From Sphaeroforma arctica JP610 (lineage: Eukaryota), in the NCBI RefSeq assembly GCF_001186125.1, contig NW_014040552.1:59051-97799 (forward strand): a DNA stretch of 38,749 bases, written 5' to 3'. The notes under the pieces are model-generated. The model ran no database searches, had not been told where the DNA came from, and was given only the letters and a program-made list of their open reading frames with translations. Position 1 is the first letter of the stretch, and the number at the start of each line of letters is the position of its first letter. Shown piece after piece: positions 215 to 38,679 of this stretch. Made by a program: the position numbers and the translations under genes.

Positions 215-880
215 ATTTATCGTATGCAACCAGGAGGATTTTTGTATCGTCCGGATATCCACATATGCTATTGGATCATAGACTGTAAGTCATTGAACCA
301 AGAGTCTGACTTCTTCAAGGATAGTGTTATGGTGGATTTCCTTTTGTTTAAATAAGCAAATCCCTTATCAACCGTCAAGGTGGGTTTGCCCATGCTTTGT
401 GTTACGCGAGATCAATCTCATTCAGAGACATAGTCGGTAGTTGTGCGTTATGTGACGCCGCAAACATAACTATGGTATGTTTGCCCAATCTTTCTTCAGC
501 TAGTCTGAGGAAGTGTGGACGTAGCTTCTAGCCGGTAGTTGTTAGCAAATTTATTTTTTTGTGAAAGCATATCAAACACGTCATCTTTAGGGTGATTCGA
601 ATACCTATAGTTCGGTAGTTGTATGTGTTTTGTAGCCCCGCAAACATATCTATGGCATTTTTGCCCCATCCTTCGTCAGCTTGTTTATAGAAGTTTGGGT
701 GTAGCTTCTAGTTGGTAGATAGTAGCTGTCAGTCAGTCTGTTGTTAAAGCATCTCAACCGCGTCACCCTAAGATTGTGCTCTATGTAACGCCGCAAACAG
801 TTATATGGTACGTTTGCCCCGTCTTTCTTCAGATAGTTGGAAGTAGTGTGGGTGTAGCTTTTAGTCGGTAGCTAGTAATT
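215..880 (-). pseudogene. Dam-like (DIRS MT-type) DNA N6-adenine methyltransferase domain, decayed, N-terminal module present three times
   Basis: One minus frame reads TD*KLHPHYFQLSEERRGKRTI*LFAALHRAQ / TN*KLHPNFYKQADEGWGKNAIDMFAGLQNT / TG*KLRPHFLRLAEERLGKHTIVMFAASHNAQLPTMSLNEIDLA*HKAWANPP*RLIRDLLI. NPP* lies at 386-375, and its TGA is one change from TGG (NPPW). TITLSLKKSDSWFNDL follows after a frameshift. Confidence 0.75.
430..880. repeat. Three diverged tandem copies, periods 180 and 153 bp
   Basis: Anchor CCGCAAACA at 458, 638 and 791. Both spacings are multiples of 3. Confidence 0.9.
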
Positions 881-3265
881 CTCGGACAGTCATTCAATGC
901 CTGGTATCAGACGTGAGAGTGTATACATGGTACATGTTCCATTGTAAAAGAGAACTGGCAGAGGCAATCACGCCATCTGCTTATCAGTTGTTTTTGCGGT
1001 ATCATATCGTTAAAGCATACCAAAGACTTTTGGTCACAAGGCACTTTAAAGTGCATGCCGATAGACTTTAAAGTGCTCCAAGAAAATAATTTGGCAAGAA
1101 GTTATTGCTTTACTTTGGGGTAGTTACGCTAATCGAGGCTTAATGTCTAATACTTAGTAGAGTACACCTCCCACAACATTGTCAGATGCGTCTTTGGCTA
1201 GCCTAGAACTATTCGGTTCGCTGGTCGTCGTATCACAGGTGTATACCATTCAGCGGTTTAACCTTTTTGAACACGTCTTTGCATTCGGCTGTCCATAAGT
1301 CATATATTGCATTCGGCTGTCCATAAGTCATATAGCTTGCCTTTGTGTAAAGGAAGTTGTTTTGATGTGCAGTCTTGTTACAGCTAACGTATGCTGCGTA
1401 CTTGGGGTTTAGAATCATGTATAGCTGTACAGAGCCCTAGGTTCGTCCCTTGATCGGAGGTTTCCACTGTTTCGAACACAGGCCGTCGTTCTCGTTGGAG
1501 TCGGTTTTTGACTCTATAGCATTGTTCCCAGACCGAGTGGTATTTGTTTACGCGTCGTCCGTGTAGGCTTTACAAACAAGTCCCATAATACGTTCGTCAG
1601 CTTTAGTGCTGATTCAAACTTTTGTTTCAGCCACTTATACCCAGTTATGTATGGTCGTTCTGTTTATCCAGTTAGAGATATTATGCATGCACACTATCTC
1701 TGACATGTGTCTGTATTTTTGAACTCATGATTCCCTACGAAGCCTATTTCGCTTTTTGGTCATGATAAGAATGTGTGTCTTTAAAATCACGGAGTAATCT
1801 CCGCTACATTCTAATATACTTGCGAGTGATGGAATTTGTGCGTCACCACTTACGAGCTGCTGTACTTGCTCAAAGGACTACTGAGTTTTGCCCCTTCGAG
1901 GAGTTCATATGTATTTCCGTTGGCATCTACAGTATTTTATGTAGCACTGAAGTACTCCTTTGAAGGCAGGCTCACAGTACTCCAGGCGTCTCCCATGAAT
2001 GATATCGAATTTGTACCCGTGTATATGTTCGTTAAATCTGTCTGGTTGTGTGACAGAGACGTAGTTAGTTCAGCCAAGACGCCTTTGTGTCCTTTTAGAT
2101 CTGTAGAACATGAACTAGTTCTAGTACTATCGCTACCAGTAGTTGCGGGCTTCGGGTCAGTATATTCTACAATTCTCATGGGCATATTGTAAACTTCGAT
2201 GTATATTACTATGTTTCGAACTATGTTAAATAAACTAAAATACAATTTAAGTCAGTTAGGATTTAGCAGTGGTAGCTTGTGTAAGAATGATCAGGGCTGC
2301 CTCTTGGTAAGAGCCTTAATATTCTCGATCACTCAGGACGTACCTCTAGCTGTTTCTTATTGAATTGTTTCCACTAGAAGTACTAAGTGTTCATGACCAC
2401 ATGCCTAAGTTGTAGATAGACATAAGAACGTAAGTCACGTTAATACATTAGCTAATATAAACAAAGTTCCATCTGAAGAAAAGTTAAAAAAGAAAAAGAC
2501 TTATTGGATTTTGGAGATTGACGGAAGACTGAAACCTGTAAGTAGTAGTTCAGAGATTATAAGAAATAGTTTATAATATTCTACATCTACTAACGTCTCA
2601 ATAGGTCCAAGTAAATGAGTCACACCAAATACTCAGGCCATTGGAGCCATCAAAGTGAATTTAGAACACTTTATAAATATTAGAAATAGAACTTGTATTA
2701 GAAATATTTTTAAAGATACAAATATAAACCAATGTGATATCTCATTTGATCTTGATATTTTAGACTGACCGGAGGCCGTATTTCTACTATATAATGAAGA
2801 TTCTCAAAGTTCACATTGTGTTCAGACGCGTATCTACATTTATTATATTGCTCTAGATACGCCTTGTTGTATTTTTTAGAACCAATTGTATTTTTCTCAG
2901 TTATTGCGTATTCTGAGTGGTACATTCATGTCGTGTATACGTCAAGCCTTGGTAAATGCACACTTGAGTCGTCGACTCTTATCGTAGACAATGGCGAATA
3001 CATTGGTTCACGACCGGAGTCAATAACCTCATCCATGGTGTATGGTATGTCATTCTTATGACCTATGTGATAGATCCTATTGCGGTAACGTCGTGGAGAC
3101 TTGTGATGACGTGGCGGTTGGCTACTGGAGCATTCTCGTTCATTGAAGTGAGAAGTGGAAATAGGTCACAGCTTCACACCAGTTGTTGTTACTTCTTCTC
3201 AGACATAAACTCTGTAGTATTTTGAATCTTCCCAAGCAGTCGTTTCAACAATCGAACACAGGAGT

Positions 3266-3425
3266 TTTTGGGCTACACCCAGGTTTTTAGAATCACAAAC
3301 ATAAACTTATTTACATTTATACAAACATACCAGAATATATTTAATAATATTAATATTATATCTATATATGACACCAAAATATAATAAAGACACTTCTTCA
3401 GAAATAAGATTTATACTGTCTTTTA
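3266..3425 (+). repeat. 5' LTR of Copia element (160 bp)
   Basis: Direct repeat of 8355-8544, running TTTTGGGCTACACCC...TATACTGTCTTTTA and containing AATAAA. Confidence 0.95.
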
Positions 3426-3436
3426 GGTTATGGGCC
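3426..3436 (+). promoter_or_regulatory. Primer-binding site, copia/Ty5-type (internal fragment of initiator tRNA-Met)
   Basis: GGTTATGGGCC abuts the 5' LTR and matches the GGTTATGGGCCC PBS known from Drosophila copia-type elements. Confidence 0.85.
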
Positions 3437-3463
3437 TATCTCCAGACAAATATTAACTCCACT

Positions 3464-4920
3464 ATGAACGAAGACACTACCACTACCGTAGTACCCCGCA
3501 GCCGTTGGACCCAACTATCCATAACTGGCGACAATCATGATGATTGGCTTGGCGACCTTCCTGTCGCAGCTTCGACAGCCGAACAGAACGCCCTTCCAGC
3601 TCTCGAATACATTCAAAAAGGCCAACCAATAACCCCCCCTGGCCAGATCCCTATCGTGTACCTTCCTGCCCAGGTGCACCTCCACACAACACAGTTCCGT
3701 ACCACGTCCACCGTAGATGATACCTATTCTCGCGCTCGTCAAAATCTTTTTGACTCCCTCTCTGATGAACTACGTCGCTCCCTTGACTCTGATGAACTAC
3801 TGTCCGACCCCTGGACCCTCCTACAGATCCTCCGGAACATGTACTTTCACAAGTCGGCCACATGTCGCACTTCCAATCAACCTTGCTTACTTGGAGACTT
3901 TCAAGATCCACGATGACGAGAACATGCGTTCATGGACTAACCGGCGCATCAAATTGAAACGTACTGCCGCCCGTCAAGGCAACATTCTCTCCTCGGCATT
4001 CATTCAAGATGCATTTCTCTCCGGACCCGACCAAGCAGCCCAAGATCAAGCTCGTCAATTTATGGTTACAAATGACCATACCAACATCACTCTACTTCAC
4101 ATCTGTGAGTGGATCGAGACATGGCAACAAACCGACCCCGCCTCCGCTGGCATCGAATCCGTCTCATTTGTTCGCCGCCCCCCCCACGTACTAAATTGTC
4201 CACTGCATCATATTCTGATCTTCTGAAACACATTGACACCCTCGAACGTATCGTCGCTAAAACTCGTCCACACAATCGTGATCGTGGAGCTGGTACCCCG
4301 CGCGACCCCCCACCATGTTTCGTCTGCTGGAAAACCACTCATTTCGCCGGTGACTGCCTTGTTGGTTGTGGTCGTTGTGGCAGCCCATCCCACCGTAACG
4401 CCACATGCGACGCAGGACCATTGGCACACAACCTTTGCACTATTAAGGGTCATTCTTCGAAGGTTTGTTTCAAACGTGTCGCAAATAAATCATCTACCAA
4501 TTATCCTGCCGTGATTTCCTGTATTTCTTTGCACATTGACTCTTCCCAAATGACCAATTCCTACTGATTGATGGCGGGGCTACCGTAAACTACCTCCACT
4601 CTACGGCTCGTCCATTACTTCACAACGTCGAACACGGTCAATTTCCACTCCTTTTAGCCGATGACTCTTTAACCCACGTCTCTGAACGAGGCATTCTCCC
4701 CGGACTGGGCCTTACTTATCTTAGCCCGTCCCTGTCTCAGCAAATAGTATCGCAAAATAGACTACAGGATAGCGGATACCGACTTGAATTTCCTAATAGC
4801 CGCCGTATTTGCACTATTCCCCACTCCGACTCTTCGACAACTATACCACGCACAAAAGGGGGTTATACTATCACATACGCGCGACTCAAAGCCCTAGTCG
4901 AGTCCCCACATCACACTAGA
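3464..4920 (+). pseudogene. Copia gag (three zinc knuckles) and aspartic protease, frameshifted
   Basis: ATG at 3464. Knuckles CFVCWKTTHFAGDC, CGRCGSPSHRNATC and degenerate HNLCTIKGHSSKVC. Protease LLIDGGATVNY starts at 4561 and is followed by LLLADDS...LSPSLSQQIVSQNRLQDSGYRLEF. Confidence 0.88.
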
Positions 4921-5170
4921 TTGCTCTACAATACAGTGACATCCACATCGACACGTGCCCCACATGCCGACCCTGTCGACTCAGCCCCTGAGGACTCCGA
5001 TGATGATGACATGCCTGGACTTCGTTCTGACACTGGTGATTTTTCTGACGAAGATGCCACGGACATCCCCCCCTCCTCCTCCGCTTTCTACTCCGTTACT
5101 CCCAATTGATACTCCCACCAATAAATCACCGCCCAATTTTCCAACCCAGGATATTCAACCACCAACCAAA

Positions 5171-6601
5171 ATGACGTACGATGAATATGATCGTAACAAC
5201 GGTCATCGGAGTAGAAAAACTACACTCCGCATGGCCCTCAAGGACAATGTGACACTGACACACCCCCCTCCTCCAGGTGTCACCACCGAGGATTGGATGC
5301 TCAACAAAAACGACTGGGCCTCAGCTATGACCCACCTTGATTTTACGCCGACCATCGATAGATGTGCATCTCAAACCAACTCACAACTACCGAGGTTTGC
5401 TGGCCCGGAAGGTGGTGAAGTCAATGACTTCCGTTAAGTAGATTTTATCGTCGAGAAATGTTACGGGAACCCTCGATGGACAGATATTTCCGACCTCATT
5501 CGTCTTAACATCTCAACGGGATCTACTATCGCTATCTGTGTCCCACTACGGCCTTACGCCAAGTGGTGGACCCTTTTTCTTTCACATTTACAAACACAAC
5601 CATACATAATTCGCAACAATGAGAACACATTCTTACGACATGGAACCACTCCGGTCGGCCGTCCTACCTGGCTTTACACTTTGGTGGCCAAAATCGGCCC
5701 CCTCTACTCTTCCGTCGCCCGTAATGCTGATCTCTGCTCAGCCATCGAATCCGTCCGCGCTAATACAGAATTTCCAAAACACTGTAGGATATGTATCGAG
5801 GGTAAATTTAAGCGAAAAACCAGTACAGCATGCCACATCAGACTCTATCTACGGACCGGCGGCCGATATGAAAACAAATACGCTCTAAACTTGATATGTG
5901 ACGGGACGAAATTTGGAATTCGCAGTAATTTACCTAACAAGAAGACCATTAGTAATGAAAAGCCCTTCTCGTCCAAATACCGTCTCACTATAAGCCCCGC
6001 CGGCTTATTGCTGGCGGGGACAGCGTGTTCCATTGCTTCTTGATCGCGGCATGGCACTCAATCGTACGCCTGCTCATACACCCCAACTTAACGGAAAAGT
6101 CGAGAGGGCGCATGATACACTTAATCAATTAACGCGCACATTACTTATCGATTCTAAACAGTCTCTTTCCTTGTGGAGCCTCGTTGAAGCTTTTGCTGAC
6201 CTTATTCGGAATGAGAATCTCGCCACTAATGAACTCCTACACTCCCCGGCGGACAAATGGCATCAGACCATCGTCCCCTGTTTTCCACGCTCCGCTATGG
6301 ATGCATTGTAGTTTTTAAAATTGAAGGGGCTCCTCTCAAGGGCAAACACAAGTATGAATCTCAGATCGGCCATGGTGTACTAATGGGCAGAGCACCCCAC
6401 TGTACACCGGATACGTGGCTTATACACAACCTCGCCACCCAGCGCCTGATTAATTCTCGGAATGTGAAATTTCTCTCTTATCACATCCCTCAGTGGGATG
6501 CCACAGGCAAGAAGGCTCGCCTCAGTACTAACCCTACAGGTTATAATATACTCGTTGCTTGGTACGAGCTCTTTTCTAATAGTGCGGCGCCACTCCCTTA
6601 A
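5171..6601 (+). pseudogene. Copia integrase remnant (split zinc finger, partial core, C-terminal region)
   Basis: YDRNNGH (5186-5206) ... CRICIEGKFKRK (5783-5818); KYALNLICDGTKF; RTPAHTPQLNGKVERAHDTL..LLIDS..SLW; YGCIV...GVLMG...SRNVKF. The DxGxE segment was not found and is probably deleted. Confidence 0.88.
5288..5695 (+). pseudogene. Dam-like (DIRS MT-type) DNA N6-adenine methyltransferase domain inside Copia pol
   Basis: Frame 2, with one internal TAA at 5435: EDWMLNKNDWASAMTHLDFTPTIDRCASQTNSQLPRFAG..NDFR*VDFIVEKCYGNPRWTDISDLIRL..STIAICVPLRPYAKWWTLF..FLRHGTTPVGRPTWLYTLVAKI. NPRW at 5468-5479 is one base (CGA vs CCA) from NPPW. Confidence 0.8.
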
Positions 6602-7279
6602 GTACCCCATTTACCACCCTTCGTTGGTAAATGGGGTACATAAGGGAGTGGGAATCACCGCCTCTCACTATTCTCCAGGCACCACGACCGACTCGTACTA
6701 CCTCACGCCCTGCTACGGCCACAGACCCGGCTCCTGACCCCACACCTGCCCCTGCTCCCGCCCCAAACCGTCTCTCTGCCCGTGAGGCTCTCGCCAACTC
6801 TATCGCCGCTGCTAAACAATCAATTGTCGATATTACTGACACCATTGCTACTTCTTTTCCCATTTCCCCCCATCTCAATTCTGATATTTCTCAGGAATCG
6901 ACGACTTACCCATCTTTAAACCCGGATTTCAACCGGTATATCACGGAGTACCAGACTCAACGTGAGATCGATGACATGTCCCTTGACGCCTCCCTTCCAA
7001 CCGTCTTGCATGATAGCCAACTCTCCACCTTTGCCCAACACTATTCCGATCGTGAATCAGTTACAGATACCGTCGACGACCCTCGCCAGGATTTTGGGTT
7101 TGAACCCAACTTAGCCGCATTTGCCCCCGAACCTTATGTTCCCAACTCCACCACCCATCATTCCGATGTTGAATTTGACTTTTCCGACGAATCTAGTACT
7201 CCAATTTGACTGACGTTACGTTCACTTTACACTACCACCTCCCCATGCTCGTTACGTGAAGCTACCGCCAACCTCGATC

Positions 7280-8332
7280 ACACTCTCCCCAAAAGTGTCA
7301 AGCAAGCACAAAGAACCCCCGAATGGCCTTTATGGCCTTAAACAAGCCGGCCGGCTATGTAATTTAGACATAGCCAAACGTTTCAAATCTATTGGTTTCC
7401 AACAAAGTGACGCGGACGAAAGCATCTAGTACCACTCAATCCATCACATAATTGTCGCACTTTATGTGGACGAAATTGTTCCCGCCGTGCAGTGGGACTC
7501 AGGCAAAGGAAAAGTGGTTATTTACTCATATTTCTAAATTTTACTCGATGAAAAACCTTGGCAGAGTTCGTCATTTGGTTGGCCTGCGGATCAAACAACA
7601 TATTGACCGCATCGAAATCGACCCACAGGCATACATAGACCACATGCTTGACTCGTTCCAACTGCATGACGCTATACCGAAACATACTCCAGGTACTACC
7701 CACCACCCTGCTGATTCCGACGCGGCCCCATACACCGGATGTGACTTCCATCAACATTTTGGTGCGCTCGGGTTTGCCGCCAATTTAACTCGCGTAGACA
7801 TTGCTGCTACGTTCAATCAGCTTGCCGCTTTCGCTACTAAGCCCATTACAGAACACATGATAGCCCTCTAACGCATTTTACAATACCTCAAGGCTACAAA
7901 GACATTCAAGATTACATACCGTCGCAAAACAGTCGGGTTTTAGGGTTTAGGGGGTTTTTTTTTTGGAAAAGTGCCAAGCAAAAGACTGTTGCAATTAGCT
8001 CCACAGAAGCGGAGTATGTTGCCGCCTCCGAAACCGTCTGCCACATTGCCGGGGCTTGCAACATTCTTCATGCCATGTGTCACACGTTTACACTACCTAC
8101 AACTCTACACTGCGATAACCAAAGCGCTATGAAGGTTGCACAAGGTACTGGCACCCCTAAAGGGTTGATACACACAGATATGCGCACACACTATATTGGA
8201 GATTGTGTTCGCAATAACATTATAGATATCATATACATCAACACTAGCGATAATCTTGCCGATCTCCTCACCAAGTCTCTCCCTCGACTTCAGCTTGAAT
8301 TTCTTCGTAATTCACTTATGTCACTTCACTGA
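7280..8332 (+). pseudogene. Copia reverse transcriptase (N-terminal part deleted) and RNase H
   Basis: PKSVKQA..PEW is joined directly to LYGLKQAGR (~7330); ALYVDE (~7457-7474); MKNLGRVRHLVGLRI; TRVDIA; KQKTVAISSTEAEYVAA; LHCDNQSA...NLADLLTKSL; stop at 8330-8332. Confidence 0.92.
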
Positions 8333-8354
8333 GATGTTTACGATTCAGGGAGGG

Positions 8355-8544
8355 TTTTGGGCTACACCCAGGGTTTTAGAATCACAAACATAATTTCTAT
8401 CGGTAAATTAAGTTTACAAAAACTTATTTACATTTATACAAACATACCAGAATATATTTAATATTACTACTATTATATATATATATATGACACCAAAATA
8501 TAATAAAGACACGTCTTCAGAAATAAGATTTATACTGTCTTTTA
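8355..8544 (+). repeat. 3' LTR of Copia element (190 bp)
   Basis: Follows the PPT. Matches the 5' LTR apart from a ~30 bp indel, AT-tract variation and a few substitutions. Confidence 0.95.
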
Positions 8545-8865
8545 GGAGTGGCTTTTTTTATCGTGTGATAAAAATTGCATAAATTTTACTTAGCCTAACC
8601 TGTGAGGAACGTAATGTAATAAATACAGTAGTTCAGCTACTTAAAAATGTGGTCGAAACCAAGCAACACTTAATAGAGGGTGTGAAGTCTGTGAAAATAA
8701 GTGAATTCAGTCAGAAGTGCCATTGAGAATGGCGCGCCTGCTATATTTATTAATCACGATTCTATGTGGAACGAGACTTTCTCTACCATCGGGGTATGTG
8801 GAAATACCAGTCTCTATGGTTTCGTATGAGTCATCACTTCTATCTCAATAAATTCGCTGTTCCAC

Positions 8866-22970: not shown

Positions 22971-23583
22971 AATACTGTGTGTGTATTCGTACACAGAAAT
23001 TGCCTTCTTGGTGAACAACAGAAATCAATTCCAGATCAATTTATCTAGTAGTATGAATGGCAGTCTGCACTTATACTCGGGCACACTATGTGATTGGTGA
23101 ATGAAATGGAATGCATCAACAAATGTGTATTCTCTACATTATATGATATACTTGCATTTCATATGATTGAATGAAGAATGTTGCCGCATCGTACTGGAAG
23201 TGGAACGGTGAGCGTTTTTGATTGTACATGTCTACAATTTTATTTCACAATTATTTCGATATAGTTGGTTATTGTACGTCTTGGTGCACCCACTCTGGGC
23301 TGTGATCTATAGGACGGTCCAGTTCGGTAGCGATTGTAGTGAGTGTATTCTTGATTCGTCGTGGTTGTATATGGTCTTGGCTGTGGTGGTTGTATGTTAC
23401 CGTGGCCTTTTATTCATGTATCCTGAGTAATTTCATTTTTGTTGAAGATGCACGACAACGAATAGTCGTTCCTTTATTACATGGATGTTTGATACAAAGT
23501 TTTGGTTTTTTCCTTCATTATTGCCTAATTTGGTACTATTTACATCGAAATTTGACCAGAGGAAAGTACACCATCAGTCGAAA

Positions 23584-23662
23584 TACCGGTGATGATGGAA
23601 AAATTCACATAACTATAGTTTGAGCATTGCGCTGAGAACACAAATTCTGCAATTCTGAGGCA
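23584..23662 (+). ncRNA. Box C/D snoRNA, SNORD96-like 5.8S guide (copy 2)
   Basis: Canonical C box GTGATGA (23589), D box CTGA (23655), same guide as copy 1, outer stem TCAGTCGAA (23574) / TTCGACTGA (23665). Confidence 0.8.
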
Positions 23663-24129
23663 TGTTCGACTGATTCACAACCACACAAGTATAGTAAATA
23701 CCATTGCAAATTGCTCCTCAGAGAAAATCGTTATGAGACGTGCTTGACTACATATACAATCTCTGAATAAAACTTGTAGAACCCGAATTTTAGAATGAAG
23801 TGCATAGTAGCAAATTTTATTGATCAGTGTTTGGGGAGAGCGGGAACGGATGCGTTTCTGAACTAAACTGACATCTGACTGATAATCCGCATTGCGCGGT
23901 GTATTAAGACATTTCAATATCCAACCAATCGGTAGTCCGATAGCTCGTCCCAACACGCTCAGATAGTATCTCCACAGGGACATACTCAATATTCTCGATT
24001 GAAGGAACATAGGTTGCTCTCTAGCCTAACCAGGCTAGCTCAGGCGCGCTTGTATTGTATCATCCCCTTGCGTTTACTCGCCACTACCACTGGTTGGTTG
24101 ACTAGTCATCATTGCTTCGATTCGATTCC

Positions 24130-28364: not shown

Positions 28365-29726
28365 CTAAGTTGACTTTTTGCCACTCGTGGGAGCCGTAAC
28401 TGAATCGAGCATATCTCTACCCATCAACCATAGACACGCACAGGCGCTACCAATAAGTGCCCCCGCCACAATGCCCAATGTAGGAACGTCAAACTCTCTT
28501 AGTATATATCCACCCACTATGGGTGAGATAATGCCACACAATGATCGCACGGCATGCGACAGCGAGATAGCTGTCCCTGTCTGGTCTTGGTGTACACTCC
28601 CAGAGATTAGTGCCCCTAACACAGTGTATATAATGGTCGAGCTGATACTCGTAGGTGTCGTGAGCACTAGCACACTCACCAGATCGGTAGAGTATACGCA
28701 GATGCTGGGGATGCCTACCGCCAGCAGAAAAGAGGCAACAACCATGGTCTTAAAGTCACCTAGAGAACCAGACAAGGCACCTACAACCCCAACGTTGGCA
28801 ACCACAGACAGCACACCCGCGTACGCCATTAACATGCCTAAGCTTTGCGAATCCATGTGTATCGAGTCTGTCATAATAAGGGAAAACATCGACGTGTACA
28901 TGTTCATACCCAAGCCCACCAGGAACGAGAAGGTCACTAGCAAGAATACCTTTTGCACCCGCAGTACCTCTACAATTTCTGTTACATCCAAGGCACTCTT
29001 CTTAGGTTTGGCCTTACACTCCTCCGCCGCCGAATCAGCCTGACTGTCCGTGGTTGTACTGGTTGTTAACGATGGCAAGTATACATAGTTTGTCACAATC
29101 ATTAACAATGACAACACACTCGCACTCAGGCAGGTCATGTGGTCACCGTAATTCTTCGAGATTGTACCCCCCACAGGTGAACCGAGTACCATTCCGATCG
29201 CATAACTAAGCGACAACCGGCCTAAAGCACTCGCACGGTTCTGCGGTAGTGTAATCTTGCTTACAACCGCCTGTGCACACAGCATCGCATGTTGGGCTAT
29301 TGCGGGAACACGGGATAAGAACAGTATGGGAAGCGTGTAGGCACACGCCATGAGAGCGTACATGAGAAAACTTCCACCCTGACTGATGATTAAGCCTGTT
29401 TTGGGACCCGATGTATCCACTATTCTACCCACCAGCGGGCCACCAACCAATGCAAAGACGTTAATCACTGACGACAGTGTACCGAAGACCACACTATCCA
29501 CCCCTAGGGCTTTGGTCAGACTAGGGAGTATAGGTTGTTGCATCCAGAAACAGCACGCGTACACAAATATGTTTGCGTGTACGTGTAAGAGCACTGTAGC
29601 ATGCTCAGCGCGCGCGCGTTGTTCTGCTTCGCTTAGATCTGCAGGATCGGTGTACGTGCCAACAAAGCGCTCTGAAACGATCCTCCACTTAGCAGAGTGT
29701 GGTAATTCTTTTACAGCCCCACCCAT
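28365..29726 (-). CDS. Major facilitator superfamily transporter, DHA1/SLC22A18-like, intronless, 453 aa
   Basis: About 12 hydrophobic segments; motif A GRIVDTSGPK; LPSLTKALGVDSVVFG, LFLSRVPA, RASALGRLSLSYAIGMVLGSPVGG; second-half motif GALSGSLGD. Confidence 0.9.
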   Translation of the reverse strand: MGGAVKELPHSAKWRIVSERFVGTYTDPADLSEAEQRARAEHATVLLHVHANIFVYACCFWMQQPILPSLTKALGVDSVVFGTLSSVINVFALVGGPLVGRIVDTSGPKTGLIISQGGSFLMYALMACAYTLPILFLSRVPAIAQHAMLCAQAVVSKITLPQNRASALGRLSLSYAIGMVLGSPVGGTISKNYGDHMTCLSASVLSLLMIVTNYVYLPSLTTSTTTDSQADSAAEECKAKPKKSALDVTEIVEVLRVQKVFLLVTFSFLVGLGMNMYTSMFSLIMTDSIHMDSQSLGMLMAYAGVLSVVANVGVVGALSGSLGDFKTMVVASFLLAVGIPSICVYSTDLVSVLVLTTPTSISSTIIYTVLGALISGSVHQDQTGTAISLSHAVRSLCGIISPIVGGYILREFDVPTLGIVAGALIGSACACLWLMGRDMLDSVTAPTSGKKST

Positions 29727-30595
29727 GGTGTAATCGCTTAGAGCAAGTGAAGACTGTTTCTTGTTCTATGATAGATTCTTGCGCTATAAGACACTATAGT
29801 GGGGCGGATAAAGTTTTTGTAGTGTATATAAACTACAATTCTCATACATACCATACATACATATATTTATTGTTGTGATTGTTTTTTTAATAGGCGGTAC
29901 GTGTCTATCGAGAAGGCTATGCGGTATGTTATTTACTGTGTATTGTATTGTGAATGCAAAAAGTCAAAAAGCCAAGAGAGGTTCACTATTTATTTAGAGG
30001 TTTCAATATTCAAAATTTCAAACTCGCTTTTTTCATTTTTTTTTTGAGGCTGTGTACGCAGTTTTTTTTTGGAAAACAGCTAAACCCTAAAACAAAGCAA
30101 ATACGGCGTATATGGTCTTTCATCATGGTGTTGTGCAATATCCTGTCTGTCAACGGGTGTACTGTGTGCACAGGGTCACAGGCCCCACCTCTAAATAACA
30201 GGTTGGTGACAGAGTGCAGCGGTGTTGGAATATTTATTTAGCGGAAGACACCACACATTTAAAGCACAGGGGTGTGCTACTAAAGATTCATTTCCATTAG
30301 TAATCATGCCAGAAGCCGGCGAGAGCGTCTAATGGCGCATGAGGATTGGTTCTCGATACCAGTACCAAAGAATTGGGATGGTAAGAAGATGAGTAGCGAC
30401 CTTCTTTCATTGTAGCGAGCAAATAAAAGCGTGCCGCCCTACCGGATCAACCTAAAAAATATACTTCAACCAGGGTATAACTATTCATACTGGCGATGGG
30501 CACGATCATTCAGATATTCCATAGGTATGCAGAACACGCCCAGTACTAAGAATTTGGCGCAGGTACACGATAGGCTTGGGTGGTCCTTCACTCAG

Positions 30596-36689
<6,094 letters not shown>

Positions 36690-37807: not shown

Positions 37808-37987
37808 AACTGCAAGTCTGCAAGTCTGCAACTTTGCAAGTCTGCAACTTTGCAAGTCTGCAAGTCTGCGCTGTCTGCAGAGTGCAGACTGCAAGTCTCA
37901 AGTCTCTCTGAGTCTCAAGTCTCTCTGAGTCTCAAGTCTCTCTGAGTCTCAAGTCTCTCTGAGTCTCAAGTCTCTCAGAGTCTCAAG
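37808..37987. repeat. Compound tandem repeat: (CTGCAAGT)n followed by 17-mer (CAAGTCTCTCTGAGTCT) x ~5
   Basis: Direct inspection. The two unit types share CAAGTCT. Confidence 0.9.
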
Positions 37988-38679
37988 AAGTCATGTAGAG
38001 AAAGAACATAACCGTAGTGGTAAAACCCACAAAATAAACCCTAAACAAAAAACTCCACAAAAAACCTCGAGTTAGAAAAACCCTGTAGGCTAAGCGAGGG
38101 CTCAGGGCTTGGGACTTGGAGCCGAGTCCTTCTCGGAGTCTCGGACAGACCCAACTTCCCAAGTTCAACCCAAGGGCTCCCAGACCCCACTCTCGCAAGA
38201 CCCCCCCACCTGCCCCCGACGCCGTAGGGCCGAAGTCCCGTGCGGGCCAAAATCCCACAGTCTCACCAGTCACCCACCACGATCCCTGTTTATTTATTTT
38301 TTATTTTACCACCCCCCACTCCAGTCCCCCACCCCCCCCCCACCCGGCTACCACAGAGTATCCTCTTGGTTTATACTCTCTGAGGGAAGTGTGTGCGCAA
38401 GCATTGCTTAAATATTGGAAACCCAGTCTCTGCAGGCGACCAAACTACACTGTTGTTCTCATCCAGTTGATATACACTAAGAAAGTTTCGTCCGCGCGCT
38501 AGCTCCGAATAAGATGGCCAAAGCTAAGAGCAAGTATGTAGTGCTTTAGAGCAACTGTGTCAGTGATCGTCTATACGTCAGTGTGCTCACGCGGTGGACT
38601 ATGTGCTTATGGCCAGCATAGGTCGAGGAATGGATACCTGTATATATGTTTTTATTATGTATTAATGTGTGAATATACG

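What the first reader, a model, noticed from the sequence alone, without database searches (positions are those of the whole stretch)
5171..5820. Copia integrase with a DNA N6-adenine methyltransferase inserted between the HH and CC halves of its zinc finger
Seen: frame 2 is open from 4955 to 6043 except for one TAA (5435). It reads YDRNNGH (5186; D is GAT, one base from His CAT), then a ~135 aa block (EDWML, TIDRCASQTNSQLPRF, YGNPRW, ICVPLRPYAKWW, GRPTW), then CRICIEGKFKRK (5783). Established: in Copia integrases the H-x4-H and C-x2-C-x2-GK halves are usually ~20-35 aa apart, whereas here they are ~190 aa apart. The order DW-x-L / IDxFAS-x2-N-x-QLPR[FY] / NPP[WF] / VP-x-W-P-x3-WW is the Dam-like MT domain of DIRS1-type retrotransposons and phage Dam (PF05869-like). 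Inference: this Copia lineage captured an adenine MTase as an in-frame insertion in integrase. The enzyme would then travel with the pre-integration complex and could methylate its own cDNA or target site. I do not know of this architecture being described for Copia.
Basis: partly seen in the sequence, partly recalled or inferred. Interest (0 to 1): 0.92.

Follow-up and report, generated by a model that had tools for sequence, protein, structure and literature searches.

The report
Copia integrase split by methylase domain
A broken Copia-type jumping gene, and at least five distant relatives from one single-celled relative of animals, carry an adenine-methylase-type domain inside the zinc finger of their integrase, a design not found in the papers searched, which likely let the element mark its own new DNA copies as active, although the enzyme's activity is untested and its catalytic motif is altered.

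Summary
Confirmed, and a lineage feature rather than a one-off. The block sits in a decayed full-length Ty1/Copia element (3266-8544). Its closest relative (P0003, named Sphaeroforma arctica, 54% identical) encodes protease, HH half, Dam-like domain (Pfam PF05869, E 1.2e-5, under the curated cut-off) and CC half in one open frame. Four more S. arctica paralogues run from HH into the domain. A near copy has His at 5189 and a sense codon at 5435. HH-to-CC spacing is 192-194 aa, against 18-39 in ordinary Copia. The domain groups with Gypsy-type DAMs, apart from DIRS-type ones (100/99).

Corrections: the catalytic motif is NP-R/I-W, not NPPW. All copies seen are broken. Closure of the zinc finger and methylase activity are not shown.

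Known: a May 2026 preprint describes DAM-carrying LTR elements, also in S. arctica, all Ty3/Gypsy; its main text never mentions Copia. This scan found six such Gypsy cases on other DNA and no Copia. Verdict: new variant of a known kind, apparently the first Copia case and a new insertion site; seen in one species only.

The parts
3261..3265 (+). Target-site duplication, left copy (5 bp; a 6-bp reading from 3260 fits too)
   Evidence: Same letters flank both LTRs
3266..3425 (+). 5' LTR, 160 bp, ends TT...TA rather than TG...CA
   Evidence: 154 matches, 6 mismatches, 2 gaps against the 3' LTR
3426..3437 (+). Likely primer-binding site directly behind the 5' LTR
   Evidence: Position shown; likeness to the Drosophila copia internal tRNA-Met site is recalled, not tested
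3464..4500 (+). gag region, frameshifted, with three CCHC-type knuckles at about 4316-4468
   Evidence: Translation; N-terminal part matches paralogue P0005; no Pfam gag hit
4540..4908 (+). Aspartic protease region (LIDGGATVNY), frame 1
   Evidence: Motif read from translation; 45% identical to P0003 3-113
5171..5281 (+). HH half of the integrase zinc finger plus its helix; first His is Asp (GAT, 5189) in this copy
   Evidence: His in the near copy and in P0003, P0005, P0006, P0007, P0022; Copia finger profile matches P0003 150-189
5282..5695 (+). Dam-like (PF05869/PCIF1-fold) adenine methyltransferase domain, 138 aa, one TAA at 5435
5468..5479 (+). Catalytic motif IV, NPRW here (NPIW in P0003; NPP[WF] in most relatives)
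5696..5782 (+). Linker with a predicted helix between the domain and the CC half
   Evidence: Helix 188-199 at high confidence in the P0003 model; conserved in P0003
5783..5806 (+). CC half of the integrase zinc finger (C-x2-C-x2-GK)
   Evidence: Copia finger profile positions 38-53; same in P0003
5830..6270 (+). Integrase catalytic core, frameshifted and partly deleted in this copy
   Evidence: tblastn of Copia polyproteins 5952-6269; weak rve_3 hit, E 0.042; indels against the near copy
6296..6475 (+). SH3-like C-terminal part of Copia integrase
   Evidence: Weak Pfam SH3_retrovirus hit, E 0.029
7325..7928 (+). Copia-type reverse transcriptase, frameshifted and partly deleted
   Evidence: Pfam RVT_2, E 4e-5; tblastn
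7952..8329 (+). Copia-type RNase H
   Evidence: 82 homologues, with Copia domains or names where annotated and none with RVT_1
8347..8354 (+). Polypurine tract
   Evidence: Directly before the 3' LTR
8355..8544 (+). 3' LTR, 190 bp
8545..8549 (+). Target-site duplication, right copy

Best explanation
This Copia lineage carries a Dam-like adenine-methyltransferase domain in frame inside the zinc finger of its integrase, likely captured from a Gypsy-type DAM element of the same host and likely used to methylate adenines in the element's own reverse-transcribed DNA so that new insertions would inherit the host's active-chromatin 6mA mark. Shown: the architecture, its presence in several divergent copies, the fold class, and the grouping with Gypsy-type DAMs. 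Inferred: (1) capture by recombination between co-resident retroelements; (2) retention under selection while the family was moving; (3) release of the domain as part of mature integrase, because it lies inside integrase and not between cleavage products, so it would sit on the cDNA in the particle and integration complex; (4) the two finger halves closing around zinc with the domain looped out; (5) methylation, then upkeep by host AMT1, the model that the preprint proposes for Gypsy DAM elements.
For: Architecture: P0003 has protease-HH-DAM-CC in one frame. Of 8 named S. arctica paralogues among the 57 hits, 5 run in frame from HH into the domain and the other 3 start inside the HH-to-domain linker. 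HH/domain-start fragments are only 38-67% identical pairwise, so the insert outlasted long divergence. Constraint: window against P0003 is 53% identical in the domain, 44% in the protease region, 56% in the HH half and 55% in linker plus CC. Fold: AlphaFold2 models of P0003 give pLDDT of about 85-98 over the domain; the best Foldseek hits are the N6-adenine methyltransferase PCIF1/CAPAM (E 7.5e-4), then KsgA/Erm. Key residues: motif-IV Asn in 3 of 3 readable copies, following aromatic in 2 of 2, motif-I Asp in 6 of 6 protein copies readable there. A second-proline substitution occurs in M.HhaII (DPQY; PMC4190342, passage seen; that this enzyme is active is recalled). Source: Copia plus Gypsy-type DAMs separate from DIRS-type ones at 100/99 (27 rows); Gypsy DAM elements occur in the same species, and a decayed one lies 1.9 kb away in this window. 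Host context: S. arctica has ApT 6mA after transcription starts, and its DAM-LTR insertions are more often methylated and expressed (preprint, whole main text read).
Against: Motif IV lacks the second proline (NPRW, NPIW; the third copy breaks after NP), while 42 of 45 non-Copia relatives keep it. The Phe of DLFA is Cys in 4 of 6 copies, and DAF reads DW/DF-R. The preprint's E. coli assay found no 6mA from any eukaryotic DAM tested. Iyer et al. judge DIRS1 MTase domains likely inactive (PMC4738411, passages). The CC half has pLDDT under 50 in both models, so finger closure is not predicted. No intact element was found: the near copy has a 205-nt deletion inside the domain, and window against near copy shows 18 non-synonymous and 5 synonymous listed differences, about neutral. 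Nesting inside the Gypsy clade is not shown (AU p 0.42). The best structural match is an RNA methylase. No relative was found outside one species.
Confidence: 0.45

Rival explanations
1. The domain is a catalytically dead or weak methyltransferase fold kept as a nucleic-acid or chromatin-binding module of integrase, for holding cDNA or genomic RNA or for steering integration.
For: Changed motif IV and SAM-binding motifs across the Copia copies; overall conservation equal to the flanking integrase parts; Iyer et al. propose a binding role for DIRS MTases; negative E. coli assay; earlier scan notes report altered motifs in several Gypsy DAMs (not checked here).
Against: Motif-IV Asn, its aromatic and the motif-I Asp are kept; DPQY precedent.
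Confidence: 0.35
2. The domain is an RNA adenine methylase like PCIF1 and marks the element's own transcript or the RNA strand of the reverse-transcription hybrid, not the DNA.
For: PCIF1/CAPAM is the top Foldseek hit in both models; Iyer et al. place DIRS1 MTases in the PCIF1 clade; two hits also match PF12237.
Against: TM-scores are modest (0.27-0.42 by query) and E-values weak (7.5e-4, 1.8e-3); a place inside integrase points to DNA (inference); Gypsy DAM insertions show more DNA 6mA.
Confidence: 0.12
3. A neutral nested fragment of a Gypsy or DIRS element fell into one Copia copy and was copied passively, with integrase supplied by other elements.
For: All copies seen are broken; a decayed Gypsy DAM element lies nearby; the zinc finger is disrupted.
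Against: Same junction and same frame in copies 38-67% identical; the domain is as conserved as the protease; Gypsy and DIRS carriers match the Copia only over the domain, with no donor RNase H or integrase flanks.
Confidence: 0.05

Closest known systems
DAM-LTR retrotransposons, ichthyosporean lineage (Fernandez-Moreno et al., bioRxiv 10.64898/2026.05.21.726589; whole main text read, supplements not visible)
   Same: LTR element with a PF05869-type domain in Pol; same host species; the domain falls on the same side of the tree as Abeoforma and Sphaeroforma Gypsy DAMs.
   Different: All described lineages are Ty3/Gypsy, classified by RVT_1; 'copia' and 'ty1' occur 0 times in the main text. In the Gypsy hits seen here the domain lies between RNase H and integrase. 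Here the element is Copia (PR-IN-RT-RH, RVT_2), the domain lies inside the integrase zinc finger, and the motif is NP-x-W.
DIRS1-type retrotransposon MT domain / PCIF1 clade (Iyer et al., PMC4738411, passages read)
   Same: Same domain family and motif order; PCIF1 is the best structural match.
   Different: DIRS elements use a tyrosine recombinase and carry the domain after RT-RNase H; the Copia domain is separated from the DIRS-type sequences at 100/99.
Ordinary Ty1/Copia elements
   Same: LTRs, 5-bp duplication, gag-PR-IN-RT-RH order, RVT_2, Copia-type RNase H, H-x4-H and C-x2-C-x2-GK halves.
   Different: HH-CC spacing 192-194 against 18-39 aa; 0 of the 82 RNase H homologues match the DAM profile; LTR ends TT...TA.
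Retrotransposons carrying cytosine methyltransferases (de Mendoza et al., PMC5890265, passages read)
   Same: Capture of a DNA methyltransferase into a retroelement polyprotein.
   Different: C5 enzymes in LINE, DIRS and Gypsy; that paper notes that Symbiodinium Copia elements lack any DNMT domain.

Membership tests
Ty1/Copia | Order gag-PR-IN-RT-RNase H | tested here: met
Ty1/Copia | Copia-type RT and RNase H | tested here: met
   RVT_2 E 4e-5; none of 82 RNase H homologues carries RVT_1
Ty1/Copia | Two LTRs, PBS, PPT, target-site duplication | tested here: met
Ty1/Copia | TG...CA LTR ends | tested here: not met
   TT...TA in both LTRs; non-canonical ends are known mostly from Copia (10.1101/137141, passages), so this does not exclude membership
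Ty1/Copia | Compact HHCC finger | tested here: not met
   Both halves present but 192-194 aa apart: the variant feature
PF05869-type eukaryotic DAM domain | Sequence homology to the family | tested here: met
   40 of 57 hits carry PF05869; P0003 E 1.2e-5, 25.5 bits, under the cut-off of 28.1; the window copy itself has no Pfam hit; own profile 108 bits against 8.7 for the best of 2000 shuffles, but built from the query's own hits
PF05869-type eukaryotic DAM domain | N6-adenine methyltransferase fold | tested here: met
   Confident model of P0003; best hits PCIF1, KsgA, Erm, with weak E-values
PF05869-type eukaryotic DAM domain | Asn-Pro-Pro catalytic triplet | tested here: not met
   NPRW, NPIW
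PF05869-type eukaryotic DAM domain | Adenine methylation activity | not testable with these tools
   Needs a biochemical assay; not shown for any TE DAM in the preprint either
DAM-LTR as described (2026 preprint) | Ty3/Gypsy RT (RVT_1) and organisation | tested here: not met
   The element is Copia
DAM-LTR as described (2026 preprint) | Host with AMT1 and ApT 6mA | not tested
   Taken from the preprint for S. arctica; the host is inferred from the names of paralogues
DAM-LTR as described (2026 preprint) | Raised 6mA and expression of insertions | not testable with these tools
   No base-modification data available here
DIRS | Tyrosine recombinase in place of a DDE integrase | tested here: not met
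   Copia integrase core and RT match instead

The most novel reading that the evidence does not exclude
The first Ty1/Copia methylase element: an integrase whose HHCC finger still folds around zinc with a working adenine methylase looped out of it, so the integration machine writes the host's active-gene mark on its own cDNA or target site. The methylase crossed from Gypsy to Copia within one host, and the rebuilt integrase also accepts non-TG...CA ends.
Probability: 0.3. Interest if true: 0.85.

Novelty: new variant of a known kind. Interest (0 to 1): 0.62.

Why it matters
It extends DAM capture from DIRS and Gypsy to the other major LTR superfamily, as a further independent transfer. It shows that the usually compact integrase zinc finger can carry a 165-residue insertion through long family divergence. 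A domain inside integrase cannot easily be cut away from it, which narrows the open question of what retrotransposon DAM domains act on. P0003 is a natural, unbroken test protein, and nanopore 6mA data exist for the species. Surveys keyed to RVT_1 and Pfam thresholds would likely miss such elements, so more may exist.

Tried and rejected
No hit for the window block in Pfam, PHROGs or PDB sequences; it is too decayed or divergent. No host genome is held, so no genome-wide copy census and no family dN/dS. Word-based protein searches found nothing new (none; only the query); one search missed P0003, so they are insensitive. Viral and metagenome contig scans found no relative; alignment A2 could not be used as a query. 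No RNA holder was listed for the element; no conclusion on expression. The protein atlas was not searched. The complex prediction of HH half plus CC half plus zinc gave no verdict (score 0.04). The wide VIA structure search never ran, because the machine was busy. The near copy's motif-IV residue could not be read: 2 of its differences fall next to the deletion joint and are not listed. Dinucleotide and GATC content of the element show no depletion. A Cys-Glu-Ala just before the domain in P0003 and P0005 sits where the first Cys of the finger would be; it is absent in the other 7 of 9 copies aligned, so I treat it only as a possible junction relic. A one-off nested fragment is rejected (see rivals). 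Literature searches found no Copia with an adenine methyltransferase; most papers were seen only as listings.

Full report
Observation. The sequence is as described: frame 2 is open from 4940 to 6043 but for a TAA at 5435, with YDRNNGH at 5186, the motif block at 5288-5695 and CRICIEGK at 5783. It lies in a full-length but decayed LTR element. The LTRs are at 3266-3425 and 8355-8544 (154 matches, 6 mismatches), with a duplicated target site, a primer site and a purine tract. The order is gag, protease, integrase, RT, RNase H. The RT hits RVT_2 (E 4e-5), Copia polyproteins map to the integrase core, RT and RNase H, and none of 82 RNase H homologues carries RVT_1. The element is Ty1/Copia.

The block is a Dam-like domain. 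The window copy alone hits nothing in Pfam, PHROGs or PDB sequences. phmmer over 1.84 billion representatives gave 57 hits, of which 40 carry PF05869 at E<=0.01. One hit, P0004, is the window's own predicted protein. Most long hits are RT-RNase H-DAM or RT-RNase H-DAM-integrase polyproteins; I labelled them DIRS-type and Gypsy-type from these Pfam orders. A profile from 45 non-Copia regions scores the window block at 108 bits, against 8.7 for the best of 2000 shuffles; this is inflated because the profile came from the query's own hits. Independent of that, P0003 hits PF05869 at E 1.2e-5, just under the curated cut-off. AlphaFold2 models of P0003 are confident over the domain.

It is a family trait. 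The best hit P0003 (SARC_09551, named Sphaeroforma arctica, 54% identical over 216 aa) holds protease region, HH half, domain and CC half in one frame. Seven more S. arctica proteins on other contigs share the junction. In all, 5 of these 8 run from HH into the domain and 3 begin in the linker before it. Their pairwise identities are 38-67%. Contigs of public runs show a near copy with His at 5189 and a lysine codon at 5435, but with a 205-nt deletion inside the domain; loose ends point to further diverged copies. Between the window and P0003 the domain (53%) is as conserved as the HH half (56%), linker plus CC (55%) and the protease region (44%). I infer constraint during the family's active life. 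The window and near copy differ about neutrally (18 non-synonymous and 5 synonymous among listed sites), as dead copies do. The host is inferred from the paralogues' names.

The finger is split. In 35 of 50 ordinary Copia polyproteins the pattern matched, with 18-39 aa between the second His and the first Cys; here there are 192 and in P0003 194. A profile of those fingers matches P0003 in two pieces, 150-189 and 353-367 (E 2.6e-6 over 8 targets); scores of the single halves are low, and the window's HH half is below threshold. None of the 82 ordinary Copia proteins matches the DAM profile. Whether the halves still close on zinc is open: the CC half has pLDDT under 50 in both models.

Origin. 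In a 27-row tree the Copia and Gypsy-type domains are separated from DIRS-type ones at 100/99. Whether Copia nests inside the Gypsy group or is its sister is not resolved (AU p 0.42). A 51-row tree agrees with weaker support (91/87). Rows were chosen from the query's hits, so sampling is biased; the second tree left out 24 short or unlabelled rows. Gypsy DAM elements exist in S. arctica and Abeoforma, and a decayed one with NPP intact lies at 218-1356 of this window. Gypsy-to-Copia capture is the simplest reading, and is inferred.

Is it an enzyme? Motif-IV Asn, its aromatic and the motif-I Asp are kept. The second proline is not (NPRW, NPIW), whereas 42 of 45 non-Copia relatives keep it; the Phe of DLFA is Cys in 4 of 6 copies. 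M.HhaII has DPQY (PMC4190342, passage), so the change need not kill activity. Against: Iyer et al. call DIRS1 MTases likely inactive (PMC4738411, passages), and the preprint's E. coli test was negative for all DAMs tried. I put DNA-methylating activity at about 0.45, a dead binding module at 0.35, an RNA substrate at 0.12 and a passive fragment at 0.05.

Comparison with print. Fernandez-Moreno et al. (bioRxiv 10.64898/2026.05.21.726589; whole main text read) describe five DAM-LTR lineages, one in ichthyosporeans including S. arctica with a conventional Ty3/Gypsy organisation, and propose cDNA methylation kept up by AMT1. AMT1 upkeep of hemimethylated ApT is stated as a suggestion in PMC12695648 (passages). 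'Copia' and 'Ty1' do not occur in the preprint's main text, and its classification rests on RVT_1. Six further searches showed no Copia with such a domain. Six earlier notes of this scan concern Gypsy or integrase-bearing elements on other genomes; none is Copia, and look-ups by sequence and by place were empty.

Verdict. A real, lineage-wide architecture: a new variant of the recently described DAM-LTR kind, new in superfamily and in insertion site. The score is held down by the prior description of the kind, the single species, the dead copies and unproven activity. Interest 0.62.

Noticed in passing
window 218-1356, minus strand: Decayed Gypsy-type RNase H plus DAM fragment with NPP intact; the start of its DAM domain is present three times (repeat at 451-558, 631-738, 784-891). 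It lies 1.9 kb from the Copia.
   Followed up: partly
window 3266-3425 and 8355-8544: Both LTRs start TT and end TA (or TT with a 6-bp duplication), so the non-canonical ends were likely present at integration. This pair is not among the motifs named in the LTR_retriever passages read (its table was not seen). A link to the altered integrase is untested.
   Followed up: partly
P0033 (SARC_09610): S. arctica orphan DAM fragment with NPKW, grouping weakly (88/83) with the Copia domains; may mark a wider NP-x-W subfamily or the donor.
   Followed up: partly
window 4316-4468: gag carries three CCHC-type knuckles in a row; one is the usual number in Copia (recalled).
   Followed up: no
window 11635-12771 (+) and 28365-29765 (-): Intron-free host genes: a PALP-family enzyme (cysteine-synthase-like by my reading) and an MFS transporter, beside an intron-rich DEAD-box helicase gene at about 14700-19620 (-).
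   Followed up: no
window 31560-31977 and 37877-38004: Tandem arrays with 25-bp and 17-bp units.
   Followed up: no
window 20836-20923 / 23576-23663 and 21300-21391 / 21692-21783: Two pairs of about 90-bp direct repeats, 91-92% alike; possibly remains of another mobile element.
   Followed up: no
P0009, P0010, P0011, P0015, P0016, P0021, P0024: Gypsy-type DAM polyproteins, several nearly whole, from mostly unnamed records; further members of the ichthyosporean-like DAM-LTR group.
   Followed up: partly
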